From the NCBI GenBank assembly GCA_016182875.1, contig JACPFQ010000004.1, positions 28,637-92,636 on the forward strand: 64,000 nucleotides of DNA, written 5' to 3'. Of the stretch, positions 3,080-55,602 are shown one piece after another. The notes under the pieces were generated by a model that was not told where the DNA came from, did not search any database, and was given only the letters and a program-made list of their open reading frames with translations. A program made the translations under genes and the position numbers. The DNA comes from Candidatus Doudnabacteria bacterium (lineage in GTDB: Bacteria > Patescibacteriota > Doudnabacteria > UBA920 > O2-02-FULL-48-8). Numbering within the stretch: position 1 is the stretch's first letter; the number at the start of each line of letters is the position of its first letter.

Positions 3080-4369
3080 CTAGGCGACCAGTACTTCCTC
3101 AGGCCTACTTATTTTTTTTCTGGCATGGTAGCGCTCGGCTTTTGCAGTCTCTACTTTATCTCGCTCAAGGTCAAACGATTTTAAGATAACCGCCCACTCG
3201 GTAGCTTTTTGTGACATGAGCCACAGAAGCATTAGCATGACCGAATTGTGTCCTGCAACCTTTGAGATGTAAGCATTGTATCTATCTTTTGCCTTACTCG
3301 AATCAAGTTTCTCAAGTAAAGGATCGACCGCCTCGCGAGCAGGGGAAATCATTTTATCGCCCAACCCGATAAACATGCTCAAGTCCAGCTGGCCATGGCT
3401 CAGAAGCTCCGATAAATCATCTGTGAGGTCTATCGGATTAAATTGCCTAAGTACCTTGTCAAAATCTTTAAAGCTTAGCCCTTGCCTGGCCAGCCTTTCC
3501 CTTAATTGCGCGGCAAACTTGGCATTGGTTCTTGCTAAAGCATCCTGCCAGCTGGTTCCAACTTGCACCAAAGCAGTTTGAATTTTACGGTCGGGATTTT
3601 GATGGCAAAGGTCAATCGACAGTCTGCTGGCAAGCATAGTCCCAATACTGTTGCCCATCACATGGGTCACCTTATCAATCAATGGGTCCTTCAAAATTTC
3701 TTGACGGACCTTATTGAATGTTTCGGCAACTTGTTCCGGTTTTTCGCCAATCACACTGTGCGGCAGTTGATAAGCCACGACTGGCAGCCGAAAATTTCTA
3801 AAAATTCCTTTGTACGGTGTAGTAGTCGCGCCATAGCCGCATATGAACAAGACGACTCCTTGGTTCGCACCTTCATGCTCTGCCTGCCCTTCGGGGTAAA
3901 TGACGTCCCGCTTAAGCTCCGGACATGACTGTTCCACTAACTCCAAACTTCCGCCATATCGAGCCAACAAAGCAATGGCGCTGTCACCGTTTTCAATGTC
4001 TCGATATTTATCGAAGTCTCCGACCTGCCCGCTAGTAATCTCGTTAATCATTCTATCTAAATTTCGATAAATATGTGCCCAGACTCCCTCAACCCCGTTC
4101 TGCCGATACGCTTCAGCAACTCTTAACAAATAACCGGCAAGTTCTTTTTTCTTAACCCCGCTCTCCCAAAGCCGTTTAATGTCTTCAACCAGTTCGTGAA
4201 CGGTTTCCGCTTCGTAAGGATAAACATAGGGAAAATGCTCGAACTGCACGCGCTGGATGGCCAGCCTTTCGAGTTCTGTTAAAGGCTCAGTCAAGAGCCG
4301 GTCGCTTTCCTGGGCCTGGGTATGATGAGTTTCGGGATGAGCTGAATTAGACTCTACTGTATTTCTCAT
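3080..4369 (-). CDS. Alpha/beta-hydrolase-like hypothetical protein (GxSxG nucleophile elbow)
   Basis: 429 aa. GNSIG motif preceded by a CGYG oxyanion-like motif. No specific family recognised. Confidence 0.45.
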   Translation of the reverse strand: MRNTVESNSAHPETHHTQAQESDRLLTEPLTELERLAIQRVQFEHFPYVYPYEAETVHELVEDIKRLWESGVKKKELAGYLLRVAEAYRQNGVEGVWAHIYRNLDRMINEITSGQVGDFDKYRDIENGDSAIALLARYGGSLELVEQSCPELKRDVIYPEGQAEHEGANQGVVLFICGYGATTTPYKGIFRNFRLPVVAYQLPHSVIGEKPEQVAETFNKVRQEILKDPLIDKVTHVMGNSIGTMLASRLSIDLCHQNPDRKIQTALVQVGTSWQDALARTNAKFAAQLRERLARQGLSFKDFDKVLRQFNPIDLTDDLSELLSHGQLDLSMFIGLGDKMISPAREAVDPLLEKLDSSKAKDRYNAYISKVAGHNSVMLMLLWLMSQKATEWAVILKSFDLERDKVETAKAERYHARKKISRPEEVLVA

Positions 4370-4803: not shown

Positions 4804-5703
4804 CTAATATTTTAAACCCAGTTTATTTAATACGAATTTTAAATCTTCCGGGAGCTCCGAGATTAGCTCAAGCCAACTGCCATCGATCAATCTTAGTTTC
4901 AGCCTATGCGCGTGAAGGAATTGCCGGCCGATCAATTCGGCATCTTGCTGTTTAAACTTGCCGCCGTAGAGTTCGTCTCCGACCACCGGATAGCCAATAT
5001 GGCTCATGTGTACCCGTATCTGGTGAGTACGGCCTGTGTGCAATTTTACCTTAAGTAGAGAATATTGTAAAGGGTCATCAGAGGCCAATAAACTGTATTC
5101 CGTCACCGCTTCCCGCCCTTCTCCAACCTTCATCTTCTGATGAGTCCCGGCTTTGCCGATCGGAACGTCGATTATGCCGTGAAGCTTGGGCACGCCATGG
5201 ACCAAAGCCAAGTACTCCTTCTCTATGTTCCGAGTTTGAAAGAGATTTTTGAGGTACTCAAAGCCGCCGACTGTTTTGGCCACCAAAAGCAAACCGGATG
5301 TATCTTCATCAAGCCGGTGCACAATTCCGGGCCGGTGAGCGTCGCCGACTTTTTCGATGCCGGGAAATCTGGCGAGCAATGCATGCGCCAAAGTATTTCC
5401 CTCCCGACCAGCGGCCGGATGGACCATTAGTCCGGCGGGCTTATCAATCACAGCGAGGTCGGCATTCTCGAAAAGCACGGCAAGGTTTGAGGGGTGAGGT
5501 TTGAGGGGTGAGGTTTTAAACTCCGGAAGCTCAACAATATCATTTTCTGAAATCTGAAAATCTGGCTCCAAAACTTTCTGACCGTTGACCAAAACTAAGC
5601 CGTCCTTAATGGCCTTTTGAATCCTGCCGCGGGAAACTTCCGGAATTTTGCCGGATAAAAATTTATCCAGCCGGTCTGATTTGTCTACTGTAAATTTATG
5701 CAC
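4804..5703 (-). CDS. rluD: RluA-family 23S rRNA pseudouridine synthase (RluD-like) with S4 domain
   Basis: 299 aa. Catalytic motif HRLDEDTSGLLLVAK. N-terminal S4-like domain. Confidence 0.85.
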   Translation of the reverse strand: MHKFTVDKSDRLDKFLSGKIPEVSRGRIQKAIKDGLVLVNGQKVLEPDFQISENDIVELPEFKTSPLKPHPSNLAVLFENADLAVIDKPAGLMVHPAAGREGNTLAHALLARFPGIEKVGDAHRPGIVHRLDEDTSGLLLVAKTVGGFEYLKNLFQTRNIEKEYLALVHGVPKLHGIIDVPIGKAGTHQKMKVGEGREAVTEYSLLASDDPLQYSLLKVKLHTGRTHQIRVHMSHIGYPVVGDELYGGKFKQQDAELIGRQFLHAHRLKLRLIDGSWLELISELPEDLKFVLNKLGLKY

Positions 5704-9644: not shown

Positions 9645-10313
9645 CAAATCCGGCCTTCGCTTTTTGGTCCGCTTAAGCGCTTCGGCTTTGCGCCACTCAT
9701 TGATTTTGGCGTGATTGCCGGAAAGCAAGACTTTCGGCACCTTCATGCCTTTGTAATTTTCTGGTCTCGTATACTGAGGATACTCCAGGAGGTTTTCTGA
9801 GAAGCTTTCATTCACGGTTGACTCAAACTTACCCACTACTCCTGGCACCATGCGAGCAACCGCATCGACCACTGCCATGGCCGGAATCTCGCCACCAGTT
9901 AATATATAATCGCCAATGGAAATTTCTATGTCCGCCAACTTTCTTATACGTTCATCAAATCCCTCATAGCGCCCGCAAATCAGAATCAAAGTTTTATTTT
10001 TGCTTAACTGCTTCACCAGTTTCTGATTTAAGGTTTTGCCTTGTGGGGTAAGGAGTACTACTTTTCGCTTTTCGCTTTTCGCTTTTCGCTTAAGATCGCG
10101 CAAGACGCGATCAATTATATCAACCCTCATAACCATCCCAGCGCCACCGCCATAAGGCCGGTCATCAACGGACTTATGCGCATCAGTCGCCCAGTCCCGC
10201 AAATTGCGGACTTGAATTTTTATAAGCTTCTTGGCGAGCGCGCGTTTAATTACGCTTATATTGAAATAAGATTCGAATGCTTCCGGAAAGATTGTGAGGA
10301 TGATGAATTTCAT
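9630..10313 (-). CDS. trmD: tRNA (guanine37-N1)-methyltransferase TrmD
   Basis: Start taken at [16 protein letters not shown] TrmD motifs ([21 protein letters not shown]). Contains an in-frame (GCGAAA)n repeat. Confidence 0.85.
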
Positions 10314-18424: not shown

Positions 18425-18558
18425 CTGGCGTCAGGAATCGAATAAATCGGGGGCCCCCGAAAATTGCGCAGCAATTTTTGGGGAAAGAGGCACTGGCACG
18501 GAAGCCGAAGCGACTTTGACGATTAGTCAAAGGCGCAAAGGCTGAAGTGCCTGATGAC

Positions 18559-18718
18559 TCGTGGTGCCGGGGGCAGGAGTTTCATTCGCCGCTAATGCGG
18601 CTCTATACAGGGTTGCGCCGGAAGCTGCGCTTGCTCGCTTCCGTCGATCGCTTGACTTCGACTGATGTCTTGTCTCGCTTCAACCCGTTCAACTCCGCTC
18701 AAATCTTAGCAAATTCTC
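18559..18718 (-). mobile_element. ~160-bp insertion/remnant at the tRNA-Leu 3' end bounded by a 20-nt duplicate of the tRNA 3' end
   Basis: AACTCCTGcCCCCGGCACCA at 18559-18578 (minus) matches the tRNA 3' terminal 20 nt at 19 of 20 positions. The intervening ~140 nt is homologous to the tRNA-Pro trailer. Confidence 0.4.
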
Positions 18719-18805
18719 TGGTGCCGGGGACAGGAGTTGAACCTGCATGCCCTTGCGGGCGCTAGCTCCTAAAGCTAGTGCGTCTGCCAGTTTCGCCACC
18801 CCGGC
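18719..18805 (-). tRNA. tRNA-Leu (anticodon TAG), class II with long variable arm
   Basis: Acceptor GCCGGGG/CCCCGGC. Anticodon loop TTTAGGA. Long variable arm. CCA encoded. Confidence 0.8.
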
Positions 18806-19782: not shown

Positions 19783-19918
19783 ATCAAAGAAAACGCTTGT
19801 CAATTCATTATTTTCATTAATTCGCAAAATTCGTATTTTGTAAAAATGAAAGCAGCTGCCTGTATCTTCCCTGGTATACCCAGGGTCGATAACAAACAGC
19901 TGCTGCGATGAGCCAATC

Positions 19919-21430
19919 TTACACGACGCGCGACACCGGCACTTGGTCCATGGCCGGCGGCAGCTCCGGAACCTGCCGTCCTTCCTTCCCCGTATCTGCC
20001 CACGCCGAACCGTTGCGTTCATCTGATCGCTTCACGATCTTGCCATCGAGGTATTTCTCGATGACCTCGATGATGGTCTGATCATCGAGGGCGCATGGCG
20101 GCCCTTCCTTATGCGACTGCGTCGAACCGCCACCAAGGATGTAGCCGGCCTTTGCCGAGGGCATTGAGAACTGCGAACCCTCGACGTAGTTGGCCGCGAG
20201 CTCAGCATCGGTTCGCTCGGTCTTGTCCCCTCGCAGCGCGAACTCCCAACGCCGTAGTTCGATCAGGATCCGGCGCAGGCTGAGCTCAATTTCGATGAAC
20301 GGAATTTCGACGTCCTGCTCCTCCCTGTGGCTTTCTTGCTGGGCGTCGGGATCCTGCGTCATCTCGTCTTCTTGTTCTTTCTTTTTGATTCCTTCGCGGA
20401 TCGAGATGTACACATGACCCCTGGAGTTACGAATGAGAATCACGTCAGCGCCGACGTATCGTGATCGCAAAATTCGCGCGAGCTCGCCGTCACCTGACAG
20501 CGGATGCTCTTTGCGAATCACCACGAACCTGATGGACGGCTTGATGCCAGCGACCTTGACTTTCCGCAACTCGCCTCGGTTGGGTGCAAAGCGCTTAAGG
20601 CACTGTGCAAAAGTCACCTCATTCATGAGCTTTATCCAAAGCTCCAACAAAGTGCTCTGGACGACCTGGGTGGCCAGGAAATTCCCCCGCTCCTCAGGAT
20701 CTTGCGGAAGCGATTGTTCCGAGAGAGCGAGGTGTGGCGGGAATTTCTCGCCGGCAGCGATGCGGTCGGCGATCGCCCACTTGTGCTTGACCACGGGCCC
20801 CATTGCGTCGGAATCGTTGACTCGCCCGCGATCACCCTTCTTAACGTAGTGCGTGACTGAGTCAATCGCGAACCTGATGACGTCAGGCTCGTAGCCCAGA
20901 CGCTTGAAGAACTCGCCACGGTGAAGCAGATCGAGGCCCCGCTTCGAAGGATCCGTGAGATAAGCCGTGTGTTCCGCCTTGTAGCGTTCGAACTTGGCCC
21001 GGTATGCGTTCCACTTAGCTTTGTTCTCCTCAGTCTCTTTCTCTTTCGGCGGCCTCGGAGCCTTGGGGTAATACCCCTTGCCCAGCAGCTCCGCAGCGCA
21101 GGTGTTGATCTGTTCACCCTGTTCGTCCATCCGCCCATGCTCGTCATACGGATTGTCTGTGCCGCCGATTCCGATCGGTGTCAGCCCCAGCGAGTAGAGT
21201 TCTGCGGAAGTCGTATTGTGCGGATCCCGCACGCAAACGACCTTGCCTTCTTTCGGCATCAGTTCGCCGCCGAAGAAGGTGCCCTGAAAAATCGCCCACT
21301 GCTCATCGAGATGAGGATCAGTGTGCGGAGCAAAGGCCCCAGACAACCCCAGGGGGTCGTCTTTGGCCATGGCTCTAATCTGCTCAACAGTGAGTACGAG
21401 TGTCTTGATGTTGGCGATTTCGTGCAACAT
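19919..21430 (-). CDS. Hypothetical protein encoded in the high-GC island
   Basis: High-GC ORF. Start taken at MLHEIANI after RBS AGGGGGA (the longer ORF runs to 21532). No family recognised. Confidence 0.4.
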   Translation of the reverse strand: MLHEIANIKTLVLTVEQIRAMAKDDPLGLSGAFAPHTDPHLDEQWAIFQGTFFGGELMPKEGKVVCVRDPHNTTSAELYSLGLTPIGIGGTDNPYDEHGRMDEQGEQINTCAAELLGKGYYPKAPRPPKEKETEENKAKWNAYRAKFERYKAEHTAYLTDPSKRGLDLLHRGEFFKRLGYEPDVIRFAIDSVTHYVKKGDRGRVNDSDAMGPVVKHKWAIADRIAAGEKFPPHLALSEQSLPQDPEERGNFLATQVVQSTLLELWIKLMNEVTFAQCLKRFAPNRGELRKVKVAGIKPSIRFVVIRKEHPLSGDGELARILRSRYVGADVILIRNSRGHVYISIREGIKKKEQEDEMTQDPDAQQESHREEQDVEIPFIEIELSLRRILIELRRWEFALRGDKTERTDAELAANYVEGSQFSMPSAKAGYILGGGSTQSHKEGPPCALDDQTIIEVIEKYLDGKIVKRSDERNGSAWADTGKEGRQVPELPPAMDQVPVSRVV

Positions 21431-21560
21431 GGCAAAATCCCCCTGCGTTATGTGAATGTTCGAGTTAATGACGTTGAGACAGTCGCCCCAATTGCCGACT
21501 GTAACCGAAAATTTTATCAAAAACACGGTCATCTGTCAATTCAAAGCAACAAAGCTAACG

Positions 21561-21589
21561 TTGACAAAGTGGCCGAAAGTTGCTAGAAT
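21561..21589 (+). promoter_or_regulatory. Consensus sigma70 promoter TTGACA-17-TAGAAT within the island
   Basis: Perfect -35 and near-consensus -10 with 17-bp spacer. Reads toward the island plus-strand operon. Confidence 0.55.
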
Positions 21590-21777
21590 TCGCGGTTATC
21601 ATGTCTGACCGCCCTTTGTATCGGCGGCATCATGATAGGTCTTTAATAATCGTGTTTTAATCATAGGATTTGGTGGGCTGTTTTTTGCGTTGGGTGTGAT
21701 GAACATTCAGCGCAAGAAGCGGTCTAAACATTTACCACGCAACAGACTCTATCAGCCGATCCGTTTAGGAGGCAGAC

Positions 21778-22515
21778 ATGGCAAAAACGCCACCAGGAAA
21801 AGGGCCTAGAAAGGGTCCCGGCGGAAAAACCGGGGGTGGCCCCAGGAAAGCGGTTTACAAGCGAATATACGAAGTCGGCGGCACACCCGACGCCACCGAG
21901 CTCACTGTCACCATCTACAGGGACGGCCTGCTCGCGGACAAGGAAGCCGTGTGGTTCTACCTCGGGGTCGAAGGCAATCTGCACCAGAAGCCGGCCGAAG
22001 AACTCGACCCGGCAGCCCCCGGCGGCAAGAAAATTTGGAAGCTCGAGACCAAGGGCGGAGTCGCCCACGGCAGGCTCGACTTCACGAGCGCCGAGCTCTC
22101 CAAATTCACACACGTCACGGCTAAGCACGGCTCGTTCGACTGGGAGGAGACGAAGACACGGCCGCCAGCAGAGCCCACTGGGGTGAAGCCGAAAACCAAG
22201 TGGTTCAAGCTCACCCCCGACGACGAGAAGATCGAAACCTGGGATGAGCGCGCGGCGTTCACCTTGGTCACCTTCGACGCCACGGGCAAAACCCCGTCGG
22301 CCGAGACGATGCGCATCAGCGCAGGCAAGGTCATTCGCCTGTTCAACCGCGAAACCGGAGCGCTCATCGGCGAGGGCAAGGTCATCACGTTCGCAACGCC
22401 GGGCACCGGCATCCTCGACATCGAAGTCGAGGTCGTCGGCGACTTCCTGGCGAAGCTGACGTTCATGCACATCGCCAGCGCCGAGACGCTCACCAAGGAA
22501 ATCCGACTCAAATAG
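21778..22515 (+). CDS. Island hypothetical protein with Lys/Gly/Pro-rich N-terminus
   Basis: 245 aa. RBS GGAGG. High-GC codon usage. Overlapping minus-strand ORFs are treated as spurious. Confidence 0.45.
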   Translation: MAKTPPGKGPRKGPGGKTGGGPRKAVYKRIYEVGGTPDATELTVTIYRDGLLADKEAVWFYLGVEGNLHQKPAEELDPAAPGGKKIWKLETKGGVAHGRLDFTSAELSKFTHVTAKHGSFDWEETKTRPPAEPTGVKPKTKWFKLTPDDEKIETWDERAAFTLVTFDATGKTPSAETMRISAGKVIRLFNRETGALIGEGKVITFATPGTGILDIEVEVVGDFLAKLTFMHIASAETLTKEIRLK

Positions 22516-22526
22516 GAGAGACTGAC

Positions 22527-23141
22527 ATGGCAGAGATTGGCGGTATCAAGTTTGACTTCCCGGCCATCAAGGAAGTCCTCGCGTCGGCGGCTGGCCATCA
22601 GGTCTCCAACCTGTTGAGCTTCATCCTCGAACGCGGAACCGAGGCCGAGAAGCAGATCGTCGTCCAGGCCGGCAGGTTGATGGCCGAGGGCAAGTTCAAG
22701 GAAGCCGAGGAAGCATTGAAAGCGCTCCCCGGCGGAATCGGCCGGGCTGACGAAGCCATCTGGTGGTCGGATCTGGCATTCCTGCGGCGGCGCAACCTGC
22801 TCACTCCCGCGCAGGCGACGGCGCTCGAAGCCTTCCTCCGCAACCTCACGGAAGCGGAGAAGGACAAAATCCGCCTGACGCACGTGGTCAAGAATGAAGA
22901 CCAGCGCCGCCACGACCTGGTGACGCTGGGACGCATCGACAGGGACGACGCCAAGCGCCAGCACCTGGACATGGTGTTTCACAAAACGCTGGCCGACACG
23001 CTCAACGCAATCGGCGCGCAGGTCAGCACCTGGGTTCGTCCCAAGATTGAGGAAGCCCAGTGGCGAAACAAGCGGTTCGACGGACCGATCTGGCGGCTCT
23101 TCCGCCCGATCACCTGCATCTGGGAAGGCCTCGGCTTCTAA
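22527..23141 (+). CDS. Island hypothetical protein
   Basis: 204 aa. RBS AGGAGAG 7 nt upstream. Tightly packed with flanking plus-strand genes. Confidence 0.45.
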   Translation: MAEIGGIKFDFPAIKEVLASAAGHQVSNLLSFILERGTEAEKQIVVQAGRLMAEGKFKEAEEALKALPGGIGRADEAIWWSDLAFLRRRNLLTPAQATALEAFLRNLTEAEKDKIRLTHVVKNEDQRRHDLVTLGRIDRDDAKRQHLDMVFHKTLADTLNAIGAQVSTWVRPKIEEAQWRNKRFDGPIWRLFRPITCIWEGLGF

Positions 23142-23153
23142 GGAGAAGAGACA

Positions 23154-24107
23154 ATGAATCAGTTCGAACAAGCGTTGCTCCATGTCCTCGAACTGGCCTT
23201 CACCGATGGCAAGGGTAAAGTCCAGAGGACGATTCGTCCCATCACCGCCGGCTGCACGTTCTTCTGGGCGCTCGGCATGTTCCTGGCGTGGCTGCTCCAG
23301 AGCGGGACCCCGGCGTTCGTGTGTGCGGCCATCTGCGGCGCCATCTGGTTCATCCCCATCGGCCGGGTTGCTCTGGCCGCATGGATTGCCCAGATGATTC
23401 CCGAAGAGTGGCTGAAGAAACTGGGCTTGAGCGTCGAAAACTTCACGCCCAGCAAGACCACCTACACCCTCGGCACCGTCGGCATGTGGCAGATCGCGTC
23501 GCTCATCCTGCTCGGAGTCTTCCCGTTCTGGAAGAGCGGCATGTACTACTCGCTGTATGCCGCGTTCTGGGCCGTGATGGTGGCCACGTGGCTTATTGTC
23601 GCTACGTCCGAAGGCGACATCCGCTTCTGGCGCAAGATCTACGGCTGGTCCATCGCCGGGATTTTCGCCGGGATTCTGCTGTTGCTGCTAATGCCGGAAG
23701 AAGTCAACGGACTGCGGTCGTGGTTGGATCGGCGTGCGACGTACACCGTGGCCGAGACCGCGTTCCACAACGGCGTCGCGTCAGATACGCAAGCCATGCT
23801 CCAGCAGACTGACCAGAACCTCCGCGTCCTCGTCAACCAGCGCCGGTACTACAACCTTCAAGGTTGGGACTATCCGGCGGACAAGGAAGCGGAGATCGTG
23901 CGGCTGACTGCGCTGCACGAAGACCTCGTGCGGGAGCGCGACGTTCCGATTGCCAAGGCGCCGGGCCGGTTCTCGGCCGAAGCCGCCAACGCATTCGGAA
24001 GTTCACTCGACTTCGTCAGCGCGACAGCCAGCAACCCCTGGCTCGCGGGGTTTGCCTGCTTCGCACTGCTGATGTTCGGCTGGGTGGTCATGAAGGGAAG
24101 GAGCTAG
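23154..24107 (+). CDS. Island polytopic membrane protein
   Basis: 317 aa. RBS AGGAGAAG. Several hydrophobic helices. Confidence 0.45.
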   Translation: MNQFEQALLHVLELAFTDGKGKVQRTIRPITAGCTFFWALGMFLAWLLQSGTPAFVCAAICGAIWFIPIGRVALAAWIAQMIPEEWLKKLGLSVENFTPSKTTYTLGTVGMWQIASLILLGVFPFWKSGMYYSLYAAFWAVMVATWLIVATSEGDIRFWRKIYGWSIAGIFAGILLLLLMPEEVNGLRSWLDRRATYTVAETAFHNGVASDTQAMLQQTDQNLRVLVNQRRYYNLQGWDYPADKEAEIVRLTALHEDLVRERDVPIAKAPGRFSAEAANAFGSSLDFVSATASNPWLAGFACFALLMFGWVVMKGRS

Positions 24108-24109
24108 CC

Positions 24110-24919
24110 ATGAGCACACCATCTTCGTCGTCAGGAAACGGCCGACTCCGGCGCTTCGTGATCTTCGTCGGGTTCATGGGCGTGATCTGGTTCGCCTTGC
24201 TTCAGCCATGGATGCAGAGCGCCATCGGGTTCAACGGCTGGCACATCATGGCCTACCAGAACGGCATCCGCTCGGCGGACTGGCGCTGTGCCAACAAGCA
24301 GCCCGAGGACATCGGTCCGGACTGCGACATCGACGCAGTTTATGAGAGGTACGTCCCCACCGCACAGCGCGCCGGCAACCTGACAGCGTCGGTCCACCAG
24401 CTCAACGCAATCGCGGCGAACCTCGCCACGGTCAAATCGCCGCTGGTGGTCGATTCTGGGTCCGCGCTCTGGCAGCTCGACAATATCCACGACACAGAAT
24501 ACCGGCAAACCTTCAAAGGTATCCCTGTGTTCAAGGGTCGGGTGCAGATCCGCGTCCGCGAGCGCGTCACCAGCAAGGACTGCGGCTACAATACAACGGA
24601 CGCCAACGGGGTGCCCAAGCCCGGCGGGCCGTTCTGCAAGCTGGAGCTTGTGGACGACAACCTGCCGTACCTGGCCGCGATCGGGCGGCGGTGTCCGGCA
24701 GAGGGCTGCAGCAATCCCTCGTCCTTCACCAGTCCGGAGGCCAAGTTCCTGGTCGGGACGTGTCTCGACCTGGACGCGGCTGCGGTCAACGGTGTCGTCA
24801 ACCTCGTCGTCAATGAGGGTCGGCATGCCGACTACTTCGGCGACAATACCGGGGACTACGTCGTCGAGTATGAACACAATCCCGCGACTGGCTGCCGTGG
24901 GGAGCAGTTCACGTACTAG
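24110..24919 (+). CDS. Island secreted/membrane-anchored Cys-containing protein
   Basis: Start taken at MSTPSSSS after RBS GGAAGGAG. Signal/TM segment FVIFVGFMGVIWFALL. Confidence 0.4.
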   Translation: MSTPSSSSGNGRLRRFVIFVGFMGVIWFALLQPWMQSAIGFNGWHIMAYQNGIRSADWRCANKQPEDIGPDCDIDAVYERYVPTAQRAGNLTASVHQLNAIAANLATVKSPLVVDSGSALWQLDNIHDTEYRQTFKGIPVFKGRVQIRVRERVTSKDCGYNTTDANGVPKPGGPFCKLELVDDNLPYLAAIGRRCPAEGCSNPSSFTSPEAKFLVGTCLDLDAAAVNGVVNLVVNEGRHADYFGDNTGDYVVEYEHNPATGCRGEQFTY

Positions 24920-25053
24920 CAGCCAACCCAAGGAGGAAGCGTCTCCGGTCAGATGACTGGAGGCATGACAATAACCACGGCCCTGAAGGAGCAGGGCTGG
25001 AGAGCGGCGTCGCACAATCGGCACCGCTTTTTTTTATTTTGCAAAACAAAATA

Positions 25054-25078
25054 CTCCGACCCGCCCGCGGCGTCGGAG
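25054..25078. repeat. CTCCGAC...GTCGGAG hairpin (member of TCCGAC hairpin family)
   Basis: 7-bp inverted repeat with 11-nt loop. Same arm sequences as the hairpins at 39332, 39921 and 60646. Confidence 0.5.
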
Positions 25079-25315
25079 TTAAACTGGCTTTAATATTGCC
25101 TCTATGGGCAGGGATATTGGCGAATCTGTTTTTAGCCGCTTGCTGAAATTGAGAATAGTGAATCCTTTGATGGCTTTGGTTTTAGGATCAAGCCGAATCA
25201 CGACATCATCCGCAGTTTCTACAGAGAGGGAGCTTTTGGATGGCTTGCCTTGGGAAAAATACATTACGTCTGCTTGTTTGTCGTAGTAGTAATAAAGTTT
25301 CATGATTGAATCCAA
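25079..25315 (-). CDS. DUF2283-family small protein (second copy)
   Basis: 78 aa. YYYYDKQADVMYF...KAIKGFTILNF. Low GC, embedded in the high-GC island. Confidence 0.5.
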   Translation of the reverse strand: MDSIMKLYYYYDKQADVMYFSQGKPSKSSLSVETADDVVIRLDPKTKAIKGFTILNFSKRLKTDSPISLPIEAILKPV

Positions 25316-25608
25316 TAAGTTAAATACGCTGTGAGGATAAAATTTCGCCTGTTAATTTTGACGACTGCTGCCAGATGCTTGTTATGAGAAATTTCGCGGT
25401 AAAGAATAAATGCCTTGGGATCTGTTTTGGATGGACGAATAAGCTCTGGATTTTCCAAAACAAGCTTTATGCTTGGCTTGAGAGTTCTCAGCTCGGGGTG
25501 AAAATTGACTATGTGGCTCCACCGTTCGCTGGTCAATTCCACCGGCCCGAATGGTGAGTCAAATAGCTCCATGTAAAAATTATAAACCCATTGCGTCAGT
25601 CTTGACAA
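25300..25608 (-). CDS. DUF4258-like small protein (putative toxin partner)
   Basis: 102 aa. Overlaps the downstream DUF2283 gene by 16 nt. Same gene order as the pair at 2506-2953. Confidence 0.4.
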   Translation of the reverse strand: MSRLTQWVYNFYMELFDSPFGPVELTSERWSHIVNFHPELRTLKPSIKLVLENPELIRPSKTDPKAFILYREISHNKHLAAVVKINRRNFILTAYLTYWIQS

Positions 25609-25630
25609 GTGGACGGTTTTCTGCTATACT
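25602..25630 (+). promoter_or_regulatory. Sigma70-type promoter TTGACA-17-TATACT upstream of island secreted protein gene
   Basis: Shares the core TTGACAA.GTGG.CG with the promoter at 21561. Confidence 0.45.
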
Positions 25631-25745
25631 TGTACGTTAAAATCCCGAATTTGTTTCAGGGCCCAAAATTGAGGGCTCTACAACAAGTTCAGAATTTACG
25701 GAAACCGCAAGAATTGTAAAAAGGTCTAGGAGGACCAATACTACC

Positions 25746-26738
25746 ATGAGAACGAAACTCTTTTTCGTCGTCGCGTTCGTCGCACTCGCGTCTACCGCGT
25801 TCGCACAGGAGACGCTCGACTTCAGTACCCAGCCGCGCTCAGTGCGCGCCATCGCTAAGGTCGTCATCGAGACGGCGGGGTACCTCGTCAGCGAGGAGTC
25901 GCTGAGCACCATCGACCCCTCCTGCACGTGGAACCGCACGCTCGACGTGAGCGACCTCGAGCAGGCGCTCAACACCATCCTGCCGAGTTGCGGCAACGAG
26001 GCGCAGTTCGACGACTACCGGGTGACCATCCGGAAGCGCGGCAGCCCGGCACCAGCCACACGCAGTATGTCCGCTCCCGCTCGCCGCGCCGCAACGCCGA
26101 CCATCGCGGAACCCGAACCGCCTGCCGCTCAGCCTGCCGCACCCGCGGCGCCGGCGTCCACTGACCCGAACGTGTGGTCAGCCGCCGACGTCAGCCGCTA
26201 CGGCCCCTTGCCGCTGAATGCCAGGCCGGAGTTCTATCGCATCAGCCAGCAGGTCAGGCGGCAGGCGTTCGGCGACGCGTTCGTCAACTTCCGCAACGCG
26301 GAAGAGGACTTCGCACGCCGCACCGGCGTTTACCCCGATCAGGTTGGTCCGTTCGTCGGCGCTACCTACGGCGCATATTCCCCCTACGGTTTGTACGGCT
26401 ACGGCCTCTCGAGGGGTTGTTCCACTGGACAGCCGTCCGGCAGGGTCAAGTTCAAGTACTACGGTGAGGGAAAGGAACGTGGCCTCTGGAAGGTCTGGTT
26501 CAACGGACGTCGTATCGGGTCCGTGGACCAGGGAGACAGTGCGTGGAACGAGATGTGGGAGTGCGTCGGCGACTATGTCGTCGAAATCGAAAAACGCCGC
26601 TGTCAACCCAGGGGTCTCTGCCGGTATCGAGACGTGTACAGCGTCAGAGCCGGCGAACTGACCGAGGTTGAGATCGGCGACGTGCTGTTCGAAGACAGCC
26701 ACGAACGGCGGCGGCCTCAGATTCTCACCGAGCGTTAA
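25746..26738 (+). CDS. Secreted protein with signal peptide and Pro/Ala-rich linker (high GC)
   Basis: 330 aa. MRTKLFFVVAFVALASTAFAQE signal peptide. RBS AGGAGGA. Confidence 0.5.
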   Translation: MRTKLFFVVAFVALASTAFAQETLDFSTQPRSVRAIAKVVIETAGYLVSEESLSTIDPSCTWNRTLDVSDLEQALNTILPSCGNEAQFDDYRVTIRKRGSPAPATRSMSAPARRAATPTIAEPEPPAAQPAAPAAPASTDPNVWSAADVSRYGPLPLNARPEFYRISQQVRRQAFGDAFVNFRNAEEDFARRTGVYPDQVGPFVGATYGAYSPYGLYGYGLSRGCSTGQPSGRVKFKYYGEGKERGLWKVWFNGRRIGSVDQGDSAWNEMWECVGDYVVEIEKRRCQPRGLCRYRDVYSVRAGELTEVEIGDVLFEDSHERRRPQILTER

Positions 26739-26766
26739 TAGCGCTCGGATCTCATGGATGCCAAAA

Positions 26767-26810
26767 CGGCCAGTTACTCATCGCGAGTGACTGGCCGTTC
26801 GTTTTTTATG
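26767..26810. terminator. Bidirectional terminator at island right edge
   Basis: GGCCAGTTACTCATCGCGAGTGACTGGCC hairpin followed by a T-run. Confidence 0.6.
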
Positions 26811-26815
26811 AACAC

Positions 26816-27184
26816 TTATACGTAATCGCTCAGGGCACTGTTAATCACATTAACAATAACATATGAGAGGATAATCACCACCAAACCGATAATTGCGTTA
26901 CGCAAAGTTTTTTTGCCGTTCTCCGCCCATTCTTCATTCGCTCCGGAAAATATATATTGGAACCCCCCGATAATAACGAACAGTACGGCCAAGAGGCCAG
27001 CAAACGTCAGAAGAATGTTTATTATTTTTGTAATCAGGGCCGCGGGGGATGAACTGTACTCAGGTAAAGTCCCACTTGCGGGGTTCGGTATATCCAATCT
27101 AGCCAATGTCAGCAACGGCATGCCCATTACAACAATTGCCATCAAAACTATCGGCAGATACTTTTCAAGCTTTTTTAAGCTCAT
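26816..27184 (-). CDS. TrbC/VirB2-like pilin family protein (paralog 1)
   Basis: 122 aa. Signal peptide plus two TM helices with motif GGFQYIFSGANEE..A....IIGLVVIILSY. Confidence 0.6.
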   Translation of the reverse strand: MSLKKLEKYLPIVLMAIVVMGMPLLTLARLDIPNPASGTLPEYSSSPAALITKIINILLTFAGLLAVLFVIIGGFQYIFSGANEEWAENGKKTLRNAIIGLVVIILSYVIVNVINSALSDYV

Positions 27185-27185
27185 A

Positions 27186-27319
27186 CCAGGTACTGAAAAT
27201 TTGATTTAATGATACTTAACATAAGTTATATTATTATCTAGTCCGGTAATAAAAATTTGATTTAACTGCTGGTCTTTTAGTCCCGCCTTTGGCGGGACTA
27301 TCAAATTTCTAGTACCTGG
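27186..27319. repeat. 134-bp segment bounded by 20-bp inverted repeats CCAGGTACT(G/A)GAAAATTTGAT
   Basis: IRs at 27186-27205 and 27300-27319 (19 of 20 match). The segment holds the terminator hairpin of pilin 2 and the promoter region of pilin 1. Confidence 0.55.
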
Positions 27320-53904: not shown

Positions 53905-53978
53905 CGGGGTGTCGTATACCGGTAGTACGCACGCTTCGGGTGCGTGTAGACTGGGTTCAATTCCCAGCACCCCGACCA
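53905..53978 (+). tRNA. tRNA-Pro (anticodon CGG)
   Basis: C1:G72 acceptor (CGGGGTG/CACCCCG). Anticodon stem CACGC/GCGTG. Loop TTCGGGT with U33 and G37. CCA encoded. An alternative Glu(TTC) fold was rejected on geometry. Confidence 0.65.
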
Positions 53979-54134
53979 AGAAATAGGCCCTGTTTATAAG
54001 GGAATTGAACGGGCAGAAGTGAGACAAGGCCTCAGCCGCAGTCGAACGTCGGCGAATGCGAGCAGGCGCAGCATTCGACGCTGCCCCGGCGTGAGCGCTT
54101 CAGCGCGAACTGAAAATTCCCAGCACCCCGACCA
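53979..54134 (+). mobile_element. ~156-bp insertion/remnant at tRNA-Pro 3' end ending in an exact 20-nt duplicate of the tRNA 3' end
   Basis: AATTCCCAGCACCCCGACCA occurs at the tRNA 3' end and again at 54115-54134. The internal sequence is roughly 75% identical to the tRNA-Leu trailer. Confidence 0.4.
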
Positions 54135-54273
54135 GAATCGCTCGGCAATTTGCAAAATTATCGGCTGTCAAAATCTGCTGATTTTGCAGCCTACTTGCTC
54201 GCGCCGGAGTACTAGCGCAGGTTAATTTTGCAAACAGCCTCGCTTTTTAGACAATAAGTAACCATTTTTGTCA

Positions 54274-55602
54274 ATGTTTCACGTGAAACATTTCAAATTG
54301 CATCAGTTGTTATTCTTTGTTTTTCTAATAACCCTGCCACTTCAGACAAGAGTAATCTTTCAACCTGAAACCGCCTATATTGGCGCTGTTTTTAATTACC
54401 ATTTGGCTTTTTTTGTCTATTTATCGGATTTGGTGTTCTTCGCAGCCATCTTAGACTGGCTCTTGTTTCACAGGCCCAATTTAGTTTCACGTGGAACTAT
54501 TTTATGGCCTACAGTTGCTCTATTTTCCTTGATTTTAGCTACATTGTTTCACGTGAAACATATAGATTTAGGGCTTTACAGTACTCTAAAGTGGCTTGAA
54601 TTAATAATGTTGCTTGTTTACGCATGGTCGAATTTTAAAGAAAAACTGATGTTTCACGTGGCACTATGGATTTTATTTGGCTCAGGGGTTATTCAGGCAA
54701 TTATTGGAATATGGCAGTTTCACGTGCAACATGGTCTTAATCTAACTTTTTTGGGTGAATATGTTTCACAACTAGGAACTCCAGGCTTGGCTACTATACA
54801 GTTTCACGGAGAAAAACTGATTAGGGCCTATGGAACCATGCCTCATCCCAATGTTTTGGCAGGTTTTTTACTAGTTTCACTTGTCTGCGGCCTGTATCTA
54901 TTGTCCCGTGAAACAATGTTTCACAAAATAAAAAGTGTCTTAGTTTCATGTGGAACTATTCTGATTTTGCTCGGAATTTTCTTTAGTTTCTCAAGAATTA
55001 GCTGGATTTTGGCGGGTTTGACCATTCTTGCCTACATTTGGTTTCATGTGAAACACATGAATTGGTTCCACGTGAAACTAATAAGCATAATCGCCATTGT
55101 TTCACTTAGCATAATTTTTCTTGGTTATAAGGACCTGGCTGTTTCGCGTGGGTCAGAAAGCCTGGATAGCAATTCGGTCAATCTTCGGACAACTTACAAT
55201 CAGCAGGGGATAGAACTTATAAAAAAATACCCGCTACTTGGCGTAGGAGTAGGGCATTACATTCCGGCTATCCGCGATTCATACCGGCTGCCGGACTGGC
55301 AATACCAGCCAGCGCATAACATTTATATTTTATTGGGAGTGGAGTTAGGCATCCTGGGACTCGGGTTATTTTTGCTGATAGTCGGCAAAATCTTCGCACT
55401 GGCCTGGCCGCAAAAAAACTCCGCCTTCGCCAAGGCTACGGCGGACAAGCAACTGCTGACTTTTTCTTTACTGCTGGCAGTTGGAAGTTTTCTAATTATT
55501 GGTTTGTTCGATCACTACCCGATAACTATTCAACAAACACGTCTAACTTTTTTTCTGCTGTTAGGAATGCTTGCGGCTTCAGGTAATTTGGGGGACATAT
55601 GA
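54274..55602 (+). CDS. O-antigen ligase/Wzy-like polytopic membrane protein
   Basis: Start taken at the ATG (MFHVKH) 6 nt inside the TTG-start ORF. Polytopic. Wzy_C-like region HNIYILLGVELGILG. Confidence 0.65.
   Translation: MFHVKHFKLHQLLFFVFLITLPLQTRVIFQPETAYIGAVFNYHLAFFVYLSDLVFFAAILDWLLFHRPNLVSRGTILWPTVALFSLILATLFHVKHIDLGLYSTLKWLELIMLLVYAWSNFKEKLMFHVALWILFGSGVIQAIIGIWQFHVQHGLNLTFLGEYVSQLGTPGLATIQFHGEKLIRAYGTMPHPNVLAGFLLVSLVCGLYLLSRETMFHKIKSVLVSCGTILILLGIFFSFSRISWILAGLTILAYIWFHVKHMNWFHVKLISIIAIVSLSIIFLGYKDLAVSRGSESLDSNSVNLRTTYNQQGIELIKKYPLLGVGVGHYIPAIRDSYRLPDWQYQPAHNIYILLGVELGILGLGLFLLIVGKIFALAWPQKNSAFAKATADKQLLTFSLLLAVGSFLIIGLFDHYPITIQQTRLTFFLLLGMLAASGNLGDI

What the first reader, a model, noticed from the sequence alone, without database searches (positions are those of the whole stretch)
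18559..18805. ~140-bp insertion at the tRNA-Leu 3' end flanked by a 20-nt duplication of the tRNA 3' end (integration footprint)
The last 20 nt of tRNA-Leu (AACTCCTGTCCCCGGCACCA) recur 140 nt downstream on the same strand (18559-18578, 19 of 20 identical). The intervening 140 nt is roughly 75% identical to the trailer downstream of tRNA-Pro at 53979-54114, which ends in a 20 of 20 duplicate of that tRNA's 3' end. Shared blocks include TTGAACGGG..GAAG.GAGACAAG and GCGAGCA.GCGCAGC, followed by a small hairpin and GAA.TGAAA. Two different tRNAs each carry a homologous ~140-nt insert with a target duplication derived from their own 3' end. This is the signature of site-specific, integrase-type insertion at tRNA 3' ends. 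The element is either a miniature non-autonomous integrative element family or paired attL/attR scars of related islands that were later deleted.
Basis: seen in the sequence. Interest (0 to 1): 0.65.

Follow-up and report, generated by a model that had tools for sequence, protein, structure and literature searches.

The report
Structured mobile element behind tRNA genes
The two ~137-base inserts behind tRNA-Leu and tRNA-Pro belong to an apparently undescribed family of small, folded, non-coding elements of Patescibacteria that sit behind many different tRNA genes, each carrying an antisense match to its own tRNA's T-loop and a copy of that tRNA's 3' end, which suggests sequence-guided rather than integrase-type targeting.

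Summary
tRNA-Leu(tag) and tRNA-Pro(cgg) are each followed by a 137/136-nt insert and then a copy of their own last 20 nt (19/20 and 20/20). The Leu copy lies at 18562-18581, not 18559-18578.

It is not a pair of integrase scars. A 19-base motif from the insert retrieved about 40 distinct copies in Patescibacteria MAGs and metagenomes, behind at least 17 tRNA species. All share one plan:
- a 5' block antisense to tRNA positions 53 to about 63;
- a conserved three-way-junction scaffold with strong covariation;
- a sense copy of the tRNA from position 57/58 to its end.

Relatives have the same tRNA-Leu/ftsH locus without the insert. Scaffolds 90-96% identical sit at different tRNAs. No integrase, transposase or reverse transcriptase is nearby, and neither Rfam nor my literature searches describe it.

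Best reading: a non-autonomous mobile element that specifies a structured strand, probably RNA, and recognises the tRNA T-loop by base pairing. The enzyme and the intermediate are unknown. Rivals are an integrase-mobilised mini-element and a host RNA acting on the tRNA.

The parts
18719..18805 (-). tRNA-Leu(tag), intact host gene. Its last 20 nt (18719-18738) are repeat copy 1.
   Evidence: ARAGORN, Rfam tRNA 53.5 bits, repeat family D1.
18697..18718 (-). A/T-rich linker GAGAATTTGCTAAGATTTGAGC. It is homologous among short-linker copies (for example L006), so most of it belongs to the element. The first GAG is probably native trailer.
   Evidence: Comparison with the empty site L025.
18687..18696 (-). 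A-block GGAGTT+GAAC, the exact antisense of tRNA-Leu positions 53-62 (GTTCAACTCC).
   Evidence: 10 nt contiguous. The family mean is 10.7 nt against 6.4 for shuffled pairings, with 0 of 5000 shuffles reaching the observed mean.
18608..18690 (-). Conserved scaffold core: GAAC, P1 (GGGTTG/CAACCC), the junction AAGCGAGACAAG, hairpin P2, GTCAAGCGATCG, and the long hairpin P3.
   Evidence: Covariance model R1, 91.5 bits, E = 6e-21. Covariation.
18582..18607 (-). 3' domain: small hairpin P4 (GCCGC ATTA GCGGC) and the purine-rich junction GAATGA that ends just before the distal copy.
   Evidence: Alignment A3. P4 is predicted.
18562..18581 (-). S, the sense copy of tRNA-Leu positions 57-76 (AACTCCTGCCCCCGGCACCA, 19/20). 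It is followed by the native flank CGAGTCATCAGG.
   Evidence: The flank is homologous to the sequence directly after tRNA-Leu in the empty site L025.
53905..53978 (+). tRNA-Pro(cgg), intact host gene. Its last 20 nt (53959-53978) are repeat copy 1.
53979..53999 (+). A/T-rich linker AGAAATAGGCCCTGTTTATAA.
54000..54010 (+). A-block GGGAATT+GAAC, the exact antisense of tRNA-Pro positions 53-63 (GTTCAATTCCC).
   Evidence: 11 nt contiguous.
54007..54088 (+). Conserved scaffold core (P1 GGGCAG/CTGCCC, P2, P3).
   Evidence: Model R1, 94 bits, E = 1e-21. Seven compensatory pairs against the Leu copy alone.
54089..54114 (+). 3' domain: hairpin P4 (GCGC TTCA GCGC) and the junction GAACTGAA.
54115..54134 (+). 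S, the sense copy of tRNA-Pro positions 57-76 (20/20).
   Evidence: The flank after S (GAATCGCTCGG) resembles the flank after S at the tRNA-Pro locus L036.

Best explanation
The two inserts are copies of one family of small (about 130-170 nt) non-coding elements of Patescibacteria that occupy the 3' flank of tRNA genes.

Each element has five parts:
- a linker, either short and A/T-rich or a terminator-like hairpin;
- an A-block, 9-15 nt that are the exact antisense of the neighbouring tRNA from G53 across the T-loop into the T-stem;
- a conserved scaffold, a three-way junction with a tandem G.A motif and hairpins P2 and P3;
- a small hairpin P4 with a purine-rich end;
- S, a sense copy of the same tRNA from position 57/58 to its 3' end.

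Shown:
- It is an insertion that related genomes lack.
- It folds on the tRNA-sense strand.
- It has moved repeatedly between different tRNAs, and A and S match the local tRNA in almost every copy.
- Its 3' junction is fixed at the T-loop (element|57-58).
- The duplication runs a variable distance past the tRNA end (0 to about 12 nt in adjacent copies).

Inferred:
- The element is made as a structured RNA, co-transcribed with the tRNA in the window copies.
- The A-block recognises the tRNA T-loop region by base pairing, as an intron guide sequence or a transposon guide RNA does.
- Insertion occurs at or next to the recognised tRNA with duplication of positions 57 to the end, so the tRNA stays intact and S is renewed at each new target.

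The catalyst is unknown. It could be a trans-acting reverse transcriptase, transposase or recombinase, or the RNA itself. Whether the element also serves the host is open.
For: - **Family and architecture.** The motif retrieved 22 genuine loci from species-representative genomes, mainly Patescibacteria (Doudnabacteria, Saccharibacteria, Komeilibacteria and unclassified group members), and 29 further model matches in metagenome loci. That is about 40 distinct copies, all downstream of and on the same strand as a tRNA, at 17 or more anticodons.
- **Insertion.** Empty orthologous sites in L025, L026/L027 and L028.
- **Structure.** In 38 copies, 98.5% of pair cells are canonical. There are 130 double-change cells against 28.6 in shuffles (0 of 500 reach the observed value), and slid controls give about 35% paired. 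G.U outnumbers A.C 14 to 3, so the tRNA-sense strand folds.
- **Guide.** The A-block's contiguous complementarity averages 10.7 nt against 6.4 for shuffled pairings (0 of 5000). Its base opposite position 57 follows the tRNA even where the element's own base before S does not, so A matches the tRNA across the point where S starts and is not merely a closing helix.
- **Retargeting.** Nearest-neighbour scaffolds at 90-96% identity sit at different tRNAs: Gly/Pro, Lys/Arg, Arg/Pro, Leu/Ser.
- **Junctions.** S starts at position 57 (13 copies), 58 (11) or 59 (1). The duplication extends 0 to about 12 nt past CCA in adjacent copies. In the window Leu copy the duplicated segment is 57-76 plus nGAG, judged against the empty site.
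- **Turnover.** Tandem arrays (L001, L048) and decayed copies (L002, L011, L020, L023) look like mobile-element turnover.
- **No local enzyme.** No integrase, transposase or reverse transcriptase in the window.
- **Transcription in the window.** No terminator-like site was found between tRNA and element.
- **Fold of the co-transcript.** In all 8 short-linker copies the predicted minimum-energy fold pairs the A-block with the proximal T-loop and closes the tRNA body with S. This is 5-7 kcal/mol better than the tRNA plus a separate trailer.
Against: - No partner enzyme was found, and there is no direct evidence that the element is transcribed or moves through RNA.
- A paper on tRNA introns detected no group II introns in Patescibacteria (PMC13011429), which removes the commonest bacterial reverse-transcriptase source.
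- In hairpin-linker copies, a locus-specific terminator-like hairpin lies between the tRNA and the A-block and is not duplicated after S (L010, L015, L017). A simple staggered-cut duplication therefore does not explain that class.
- A-blocks matching up to 15 nt need either strong selection or templating by the target. Neither is explained.
- Three tRNA-Ser loci that look orthologous (L019, L023, L059) keep the scaffold with compensatory changes although S is truncated to 7-9 nt in two of them. This points to selection in place, meaning a host-level function or gene conversion, rather than pure parasitism.
- Covariation cannot tell RNA from folded single-stranded DNA.
Confidence: 0.45

Rival explanations
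1. Miniature integrative element moved in trans by a site-specific recombinase that crosses over in the tRNA T-loop. The circular form would carry S, or copy 1 plus its terminator, as the attachment site. The scaffold would be a protein-bound or folded single-stranded attachment region, as in integron attC sites or CTX-phage attP. Arrays behind one tRNA would be stacked cassettes.
For: - Direct repeats run from the T-loop to the tRNA end and sometimes beyond, as at integrase sites.
- The boundary is fixed within each scaffold type.
- Cassette-like arrays with several scaffold types occur behind one tRNA (L048).
- The hairpins after copy 1 and after S share outer A/T tracts but not inner stems in L004 and L012. 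That fits a terminator carried in from another strain's locus.
- Structure-conserved, sequence-variable sites are known for integrons (my knowledge).
Against: - No recombinase gene in the 64-kb window or in the 1.5-kb segments lying between tRNA and element elsewhere.
- Scaffolds 90-96% identical sit at different tRNAs with fully different 20-nt copies. An element-borne attachment site cannot change that fast without killing the new tRNA.
- Strong sequence conservation of junction strands with a tandem G.A motif, and the G.U over A.C bias, look like RNA.
- A 157-bp double-stranded circle is too small for known integrase synapses (my knowledge).
Confidence: 0.2
2. A host-useful RNA that acts on its own tRNA and spreads by duplication and horizontal transfer. 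The A-block would act like an internal guide that aligns the tRNA up to C56 with S. The unit would then work as one of the following: a T-loop intron-like switch in the precursor, a trans-splicing device that replaces a damaged 3' 20 nt of the tRNA, or a processing or decoy RNA.
For: - The order is 5' guide spanning the junction, folded core, then 3' 'exon'. This matches the layout of a trans-splicing group I ribozyme (my knowledge).
- The predicted lowest-energy fold of the co-transcript closes the tRNA body with S and pairs A with the proximal T-loop in 8 of 8 copies.
- Compensatory evolution continues in apparently orthologous loci.
- Many copies have an A/T-flanked hairpin directly after S, as expected for an RNA that ends there.
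Against: - Only 2 of 7 tRNAs in the window carry it, and close relatives lack it at the same locus.
- S is decayed or truncated in several copies whose scaffold persists.
- The core is only 83 positions, with no group I features: no omega-G, and C-G rather than U.G at the junction. There is no Rfam ribozyme match.
- The intact upstream tRNA makes splicing unnecessary.
Confidence: 0.2
3. Guide RNA gene left by, or serving, a protein-guided system such as a TnpB omega-RNA, an IS110/IS1111 bridge or seek RNA, or a CRISPR-transposon homing guide. S would be the guide and GTTC of the T-loop the adjacent motif.
For: - A scaffold directly followed by about 20 nt identical to a genomic target is the layout of TnpB/Cas12 guides (my knowledge).
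- A and S match opposite strands of the target, as in IS110 bridge RNAs and TIGR guides (PMC12045711).
- The motif before the target is universal in tRNAs.
Against: - No such protein gene lies next to any copy examined.
- The target tRNA stays intact next to its own guide, which would be self-targeting for a nuclease.
- Two apparently orthologous copies keep the scaffold although S is truncated.
- There are no CRISPR repeats.
Confidence: 0.1
4. Paired attL/attR scars of larger islands that were later deleted, or a chance or assembly artefact.
For: Direct repeats of the tRNA end are what such scars leave.
Against: - About 40 copies from independent assemblies share the same boundaries and the same folded core. 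Independent deletions would not stop at the same points.
- Motif chance expectation is 0 in 100 shuffles.
Confidence: 0.02

Closest known systems
Integrase-borne genomic islands and prophages at tRNA genes (T-loop sublocation of tyrosine integrases)
   Same: The insertion leaves the tRNA intact and is flanked by direct repeats running from the T-loop to the 3' end. Related strains have empty sites.
   Different: It is 130-170 nt with no gene and no integrase nearby. It has a conserved folded core and an internal antisense copy of the T-loop. Closely related copies sit at many different tRNAs.
Group I intron internal guide sequence and engineered trans-splicing group I ribozymes
   Same: A 5' guide complementary to the last bases before the junction and the first bases after it, then a folded core, then the downstream 'exon'. 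Group I introns are common in Patescibacteria tRNA genes (PMC13011429).
   Different: The core is less than half the size of the smallest group I introns. There is no omega-G and no U.G pair at the junction, and no match to RF00028. It lies in the 3' flank or T-loop rather than the anticodon loop. Catalysis is untested.
Transposon-end guide RNAs (TnpB omega-RNA of IS200/IS605; bridge/seek RNA of IS110/IS1111)
   Same: A structured RNA is specified at the element's end. Its target-matching part is, or equals, the adjacent target DNA, so the guide renews on moving. A and S match opposite strands, as bridge RNAs do.
   Different: There is no transposase or nuclease gene. The target is not disrupted. 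The duplication is 20-32 nt. The scaffold is unrelated to any family I could test.
SINE-like non-autonomous retroelements (target-primed reverse transcription)
   Same: It is non-autonomous and small. It has a precise 3' junction, a variable duplication end and a variable-length target duplication. It is associated with tRNA sequence.
   Different: It is bacterial. It has no A-rich tail and no partner reverse transcriptase has been identified. Target choice is sequence-specific for one site in tRNA genes.
Integron attC sites and cassette arrays
   Same: Sites of roughly 60-140 nt conserved in fold rather than sequence, stacked in arrays next to one fixed entry point.
   Different: There is no IntI and no attI. 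Junction strands show strong sequence conservation. The entry point is a tRNA T-loop, and the copies are tRNA-specific.
Dada DNA transposons of fish (PMC8869645)
   Same: Mobile elements that insert specifically into tRNA and other small-RNA genes.
   Different: Dada elements are eukaryotic, protein-coding DNA transposons. No sequence or structural relation is known.

Membership tests
Integrase-type integrative element or att scar at a tRNA gene | Direct repeats of the tRNA 3' part flank the insert, and relatives have empty sites | tested here: met
Integrase-type integrative element or att scar at a tRNA gene | A tyrosine or serine recombinase gene in or beside the element | tested here: not met
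   No such Pfam hit among 45 window ORFs or in the ORFs lying between tRNA and element in L005, L032 and L050. A trans-acting enzyme elsewhere in the genome is not excluded.
Integrase-type integrative element or att scar at a tRNA gene | One element lineage keeps one tRNA target (attachment-site specificity) | tested here: not met
   Scaffolds 90-96% identical sit at Gly/Pro, Lys/Arg, Arg/Pro and Leu/Ser tRNAs.
Any described RNA family (Rfam 15, including group I/II introns and the hammerhead, HDV-like, twister, pistol and hatchet ribozymes) | A match to the family covariance model | tested here: not met
   At gathering threshold only tRNAs were found. At E up to 10 on the Leu copy, and up to 5 on the L048 array, only noise was found.
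Group I intron | A guide sequence pairing with the end of the 5' exon and the start of the 3' exon | tested here: met
   The A-block is a contiguous complement of positions 53-56 and 57 to about 63. It pairs this way in predicted folds. This is geometry only.
Group I intron | A conserved P3-P9 core with a G-binding site, omega-G before the 3' splice site and a U.G pair at the 5' splice site | tested here: not met
   The core has 83 positions and three helices. The last base before S is A. C56 pairs with G. There is no RF00028 hit.
Group I intron | Self-splicing activity | not testable with these tools
   Needs in vitro transcription and splicing assays.
TnpB omega-RNA (IS200/IS605) | A scaffold followed at once by 16-20 nt identical to the flanking target | tested here: met
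   S of 17-32 nt directly follows the scaffold.
TnpB omega-RNA (IS200/IS605) | A tnpB (and tnpA) gene overlapping or adjacent, and a target site split by the insertion | tested here: not met
   There is no ORF upstream, only the tRNA. The tRNA target stays intact.
IS110/IS1111 bridge or seek RNA | RNA segments complementary to both strands of the target | tested here: inconclusive
   A matches the top strand at 53-63 and S equals the top strand at 57-76, so it would pair with the bottom strand. However, the overlap is 7 nt rather than a 2-nt core, and no donor-binding loop was identified.
IS110/IS1111 bridge or seek RNA | An adjacent DEDD transposase gene | tested here: not met
   None in the window or beside the copies examined.
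MITE (miniature inverted-repeat transposable element) | Element-borne terminal inverted repeats and a short target duplication of fixed length | tested here: not met
   The only inverted repeat is the tRNA-derived A/S overlap. The duplication is 17-32 nt and variable.
SINE-like element using target-primed reverse transcription | A precise 3' junction, a variable far end and a variable-length target duplication | tested here: met
   This holds for the short-linker class only; the hairpin class does not fit a simple staggered cut.
SINE-like element using target-primed reverse transcription | A partner reverse transcriptase in the genome | not tested
None is present in the window. No group II introns were detected in Patescibacteria in PMC13011429.
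CRISPR or CRISPR-transposon homing guide | Repeat-spacer units, cas genes and transposon ends | tested here: not met
   There are no repeats beyond the tRNA copy and no cas or tns genes.

The most novel reading that the evidence does not exclude
A new class of RNA-guided mobile element, or natural trans-splicing-type ribozyme, in which a 100-nt folded RNA uses a 5' internal guide against the universal tRNA T-loop and carries or renews a copy of the tRNA 3' end. It would then either insert itself behind any tRNA gene without a dedicated protein gene, or exchange the 3' 20 nt of its tRNA at the RNA level. At least five further unrelated modules are followed by the same tRNA-end copy, and three of them also begin with the antisense block. 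This hints at a general, unrecognised way of using tRNA genes as landing pads in Patescibacteria.
Probability: 0.3. Interest if true: 0.92.

Novelty: new variant of a known kind. Interest (0 to 1): 0.8.

Why it matters
- **Annotation.** If the descriptive part holds, and I rate that near 0.9, Patescibacteria carry an abundant, unannotated structured non-coding family tied to tRNA genes. It should be added to RNA family databases. It also explains many apparent 'tRNA fragments' in these genomes.
- **Mechanism.** If targeting is by base pairing, this is a compact natural system for placing DNA or RNA next to a chosen tRNA gene. Its guide can be read directly from the sequence. That bears on how mobile elements retarget without killing essential genes, on the origin of guide-RNA transposons and introns, and possibly on programmable insertion tools.
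- **Testability.** Whether a 100-nt RNA can do this with host enzymes only becomes directly testable with the sequences given here.

Tried and rejected
- **Other copies in the window.** nhmmer and a 20-sequence covariance model found none beyond the two.
- **Rfam.** Gathering and permissive thresholds gave tRNAs only.
- **Other collections.** The viral contig scan gave 0 hits. blastn against phage and plasmid collections gave no match.
- **An autonomous version.** Three loci have 1.5-1.6 kb between tRNA and element (L005, L032, L050). The genes there are unrelated: a matrixin-like protease, a radical SAM protein and an unknown Cys-rich protein. L005, L032 and L050 also carry what looks like a remnant tRNA end right before the linker, so these look like later insertions rather than cargo or an enzyme gene.
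- **Promoter in front of the A-block.** The region from -28 to -13 is A/T-rich, but no positioned motif emerged. The window scans found promoters only upstream of the tRNA-Pro gene and of ftsH.
- **Terminator counter.** My own counter failed because A/T tracts pair into the stems. I do not use its numbers.
- **HDV-like fold and hammerhead core.** Considered from the sequence and rejected. The required strand order and core bases are absent (inference).
- **A-block as a decayed fold-back copy of the whole tRNA 3' end.** Rejected. The spacer opposite the acceptor strand shows no residual complementarity.
- **L045, where the tRNA-Pro 5' part is fused directly to the A-block.** I read this as a deletion between GAC(C)TGGG repeats, not as a primary T-loop insertion.
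- **Literature.** Five searches found nothing describing this element.
Full report
**1. The observation**

ARAGORN finds seven tRNA genes in the window, including tRNA-Leu(tag) at 18719-18805 (-) and tRNA-Pro(cgg) at 53905-53978 (+). Rfam confirms them and finds nothing else.

The last 20 nt of tRNA-Leu recur at 18562-18581 (19/20). The last 20 nt of tRNA-Pro recur at 54115-54134 (20/20). The start-to-start spacings are 157 and 156 nt.

The two 137/136-nt inserts align end to end at about 79% column identity. Their shared 24-nt motif occurs twice in the window, with 0 expected. No further copy is present.

**2. It is a family, not a pair**

One scan of species-representative genomes with GAACGGGNNGAAGNGAGACAAG returned 24 loci. 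Twenty-two are genuine. They come mainly from Patescibacteria MAGs (Doudnabacteria, Saccharibacteria, Komeilibacteria and unclassified group members); three carry a Gammaproteobacteria label. Several genomes hold more than one copy. The metagenome scan added 29 matches to a covariance model of the core, some duplicating the genome loci. The viral scan found none.

Because only copies with that exact motif could be retrieved, the true number is larger. The window itself is from a Candidatus Doudnabacteria MAG, since its FtsH is 100% identical to a protein so named. Its genes are ordinary chromosomal ones: RNase Y, TrmD, SMC, RNase III, FtsH, RecA, FtsK, IF-2, LexA and others.

**3. Anatomy**

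Every copy lies downstream of a tRNA gene on the same strand. At least 17 anticodons are used: Pro-cgg, Leu-tag, Leu-caa, Arg-gcg, Arg-tcg, Ser-gct, Ser-cga, His, Glu-ttc, Glu-ctc, Asp, Tyr, Lys, Asn, Gly, Gln and Trp. The order of parts is:
- the tRNA;
- a linker, either about 20 nt and A/T-rich as in the window, or a terminator-like hairpin whose stem starts in the tRNA's ACCA;
- the A-block;
- the core: GAAC, P1, the junction AAGYGAGACAAG, P2, GNAGTCGARCG(A)TCG, P3, and the P1 closure;
- P4 and a purine-rich end;
- S.

It is the complement of each tRNA's own GTTCAA.

The A-block is the contiguous antisense of the neighbouring tRNA from G53 onward. Its mean length is 10.7 nt (range 9-15, with one exception). 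Shuffled element/tRNA pairings give 6.4, and none of 5000 shuffles reaches the observed mean.

In at least nine copies the tRNA has G57 and the A-block has the matching C, while the element's own base in front of S is A. So the block is tuned to the tRNA sequence across the point where S begins, not merely to close a helix with S.

S starts at position 57 in 13 copies, 58 in 11 and 59 in one. It follows the gene, not the mature tRNA: where CCA is not encoded, S lacks it too (L008, L016).

**4. It folds, on the tRNA-sense strand**

With only the two window copies, RNAalifold already finds 7 compensatory pairs. Twenty copies give 13 of 21 pairs with double changes.

On 38 copies:

| Measure | Observed | Control |
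|---|---|---|
| Canonical pair cells | 98.5% | 82.6% in shuffles |
| Double-change cells | 130 | 28.6 in shuffles (0 of 500 reach the observed value) |
| Paired cells with partners slid by 1-3 columns | n/a | 32-42% |

The alignment was fitted to the model, which inflates pairing somewhat, but the independent MAFFT alignment shows the same pairs.

G.U pairs outnumber A.C 14 to 3, so the strand that folds is the tRNA-sense one. Part of the junction reads GC-GA-GAC / GTC-GA-GC. That is a helix with tandem G.A pairs, a typical RNA motif (read).

Covariation cannot distinguish RNA from folded single-stranded DNA. No Rfam family matches. blastn against phage and plasmid collections finds nothing. 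Five literature searches found no description. The nearest paper covers group I introns in Patescibacteria tRNA anticodon loops and detected no group II introns in the phylum (PMC13011429).

**5. It is an insertion and it moves**

I fetched the tRNA-Leu/ftsH locus of relatives through FtsH homologues.
- In L025 (FtsH 90% identical) the tRNA ends ...GGCACCA|AGAGTCATCAGGCACTGCAGC. In the window the same flank (CGAGTCATCAGGCACTTCAGC) follows S. The 157 nt are therefore extra. The duplicated segment is 57-76 plus nGAG.
- L026/L027 (87%) and L028 (82%) also lack the element.

Scaffold similarity does not follow tRNA identity. The closest pairs are:

| Pair | tRNAs | Core identity |
|---|---|---|
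| L047 / L045 | Gly / Pro | 96% |
| the two L048 copies | Lys / Arg | 93% |
| L013 / L036 | Arg / Pro | 91% |
| window Leu / L014 | Leu / Ser | 90% |

In each pair both A and S match the local tRNA. The tRNA-Pro locus carries different scaffold subtypes in the window and in L036, although the flank after S is similar.

Several other features look like mobile-element turnover:
- Tandem arrays: L001 and L048.
- Apparent orphans: L003, and L053/L054 where little upstream sequence is held.
- Decay: a truncated scaffold in L002, a truncated or interrupted S in L011, L020, L023 and L059, and a deletion fusing the tRNA-Pro body to the A-block in L045.

The junction next to S is fixed. The duplication runs a variable 0 to about 12 nt past the tRNA end in adjacent copies, and about 17 nt in L005 where the element now lies 1.6 kb from the tRNA.

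**6. What it is not**

*Scars of deleted islands.* Independent deletions would not leave the same boundaries and a covarying core in about 40 copies.

*A classical integrase element.* No recombinase, transposase or reverse transcriptase is among the 45 window ORFs scanned. The 1.5-1.6-kb segments that separate tRNA and element in L005, L032 and L050 carry unrelated genes and appear to be later insertions, since what looks like a remnant tRNA end sits just before the linker. Fast retargeting is hard to reconcile with an element-borne attachment site.

*A TnpB-type guide.* There is no adjacent gene, and the target stays intact beside its own guide.

*A MITE, a CRISPR unit or a known ribozyme.* See the membership rows.

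**7. How it most likely works**

Shown: an insertion specifying a strand that folds, with a tRNA-specific antisense block and a tRNA 3'-end copy, which has repeatedly changed tRNA.

Inferred: it is expressed as RNA. In the window no terminator-like site separates it from the tRNA. The scans found a promoter-like site upstream of tRNA-Pro only, and none for tRNA-Leu, so co-transcription with the tRNA is an inference. In many other copies an A/T-flanked hairpin follows S directly.

The A-block has the geometry of an internal guide. It pairs with the last four bases before the junction (GTTC, 53-56) and the first 5-11 after it, and S supplies the sequence after the junction.

In all eight short-linker copies tested, the predicted lowest-energy fold of tRNA+element+S has three features:
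- It pairs the A-block with the proximal T-loop.
- It closes the tRNA body with S.
- It is 5-7 kcal/mol better than the tRNA plus a separate trailer.

I therefore favour a sequence-guided mobile element that recognises the T-loop of a tRNA gene or transcript by base pairing and inserts with duplication of positions 57 to the end. The tRNA then survives and S is renewed from each new target. A would change by mutation and selection; one base converts GATTC-type to GAGTC-type T-loops.

The fixed junction at the T-loop and the variable end of the duplication are what target-primed reverse transcription or reverse-splicing-plus-copying would give. My confidence is 0.45 for this package and about 0.9 for the descriptive part.

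**8. What does not fit**

- **Hairpin linkers.** The hairpin-linker class has a locus-specific hairpin between tRNA and A-block that is not duplicated after S (L010, L015, L017). In L004 and L012 the hairpins after copy 1 and after S share outer A/T tracts but not inner stems. A staggered cut alone cannot produce this. It fits better with an element that brings a tRNA end plus terminator from another strain, which is the recombinase model.
- **Long A-blocks.** Matches of 13-15 nt are longer than mutation and drift should give.
- **Conservation in place.** The tRNA-Ser loci L019, L023 and L059 look orthologous. They keep linker hairpin and scaffold at 87-89% identity, with compensatory changes in P1, P3 and P4, although S is cut to 7-9 nt in two of them. 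So the fold is maintained without an intact S, by host-level selection or by gene conversion from other copies.
- **No enzyme.** No enzyme is known. With no group II introns detected in the phylum, a reverse transcriptase would have to come from another source.

**9. Wider pattern**

A generic scan of the tRNAs in all held loci found a downstream 3'-end copy and/or T-loop antisense behind 30 of 77 distinct tRNAs. This sample is biased toward element-bearing contigs.

Some of these are other modules: three further GC-rich scaffolds that also start with ..ATTCGAA(C/G) or ..GATCGAAG, a 56-nt two-hairpin module, and one whose copy starts at T54. Arrays mix module types behind one tRNA.

tRNA 3' ends in these genomes are thus landing pads for several small structured modules that all keep a copy of the tRNA 3' end. 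That raises the value of finding the mechanism.

**10. Verdict**

It is a real, widespread and, as far as I can find, undescribed family of tRNA-linked structured elements. The evidence points to base-pair-guided targeting. The mechanism is unresolved but testable.

Noticed in passing
L048 8694-9627; L023 (tRNA-Ser tga at 2668-2755 -, tRNA-Arg gcg at 5235-5307 +); L059 (tRNA-Arg gcg at 9884-9956 -): Other, unrelated GC-rich modules lie behind tRNAs and are also followed by a copy of the tRNA 3' end. Three of them also begin with an antisense T-loop block. Arrays mix module types behind one tRNA. There are at least five further module types.
   Followed up: partly
L025 about 530-770; L028 about 2770-2840; L009 (reverse strand, about 400 nt upstream of the element): tRNA genes carry insertions in the D-loop that begin CCCCGCAC or CCCGTACC. 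In L025 and L009 the insertion contains a whole second tRNA gene flanked by an inverted repeat. In L028 a 16-nt 5' fragment of another tRNA-Leu plus a hairpin sits just upstream of the gene. This looks like a second class of tRNA-associated insertion.
   Followed up: no
window 19900-27300: About 7 kb at 57-62% G+C in a 46% G+C genome. It carries plausible ORFs of 245-537 aa with no Pfam match and lies between a PaaX-like gene and type IV secretion pilin genes. It may be a foreign island.
   Followed up: partly
window 54272-54561: The palindrome GTTTCACGTGAAAC (or a one-mismatch form) occurs three times within 290 nt, at the start of the long ORF for the O-antigen-ligase-like protein. These may be operator sites, and the real start codon may lie further downstream.
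   Followed up: no
window 18440-18560 (-): A roughly 120-nt G+C-rich stretch lies between S and the ftsH promoter (GGCACT...AGTGCC, then TCGGGGGCCCCCGA plus a T-run). It is conserved in L025 but absent from L026 and L028. It may be another small structured insert or a leader/terminator.
   Followed up: no
L045 (reverse strand, about 3330-3480): The tRNA-Pro(cgg) body up to the variable loop is fused directly to the A-block, with the proximal T-arm and 3' end missing. The only 3' end left is S, behind the scaffold. I read this as a deletion between GAC(C)TGGG repeats. If that tRNA is still used, the scaffold would have to be removed from the T-loop.
   Followed up: partly
L022 5526-5813; L009 and L045 upstream regions: ARAGORN calls a tRNA with a 213-nt intron in the anticodon loop in L022, probably one of the group I introns reported for Patescibacteria. 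A shared motif GCGAAGCAAATCGCG(A/T)AGTGT lies next to or inside tRNA genes in L009 and L045.
   Followed up: no
L005 2834-3511 (-): A LAGLIDADG-like ORF (weak Pfam hit) lies close to the tRNA-Leu/tRNA-His pair on the same contig as two element copies.
   Followed up: no
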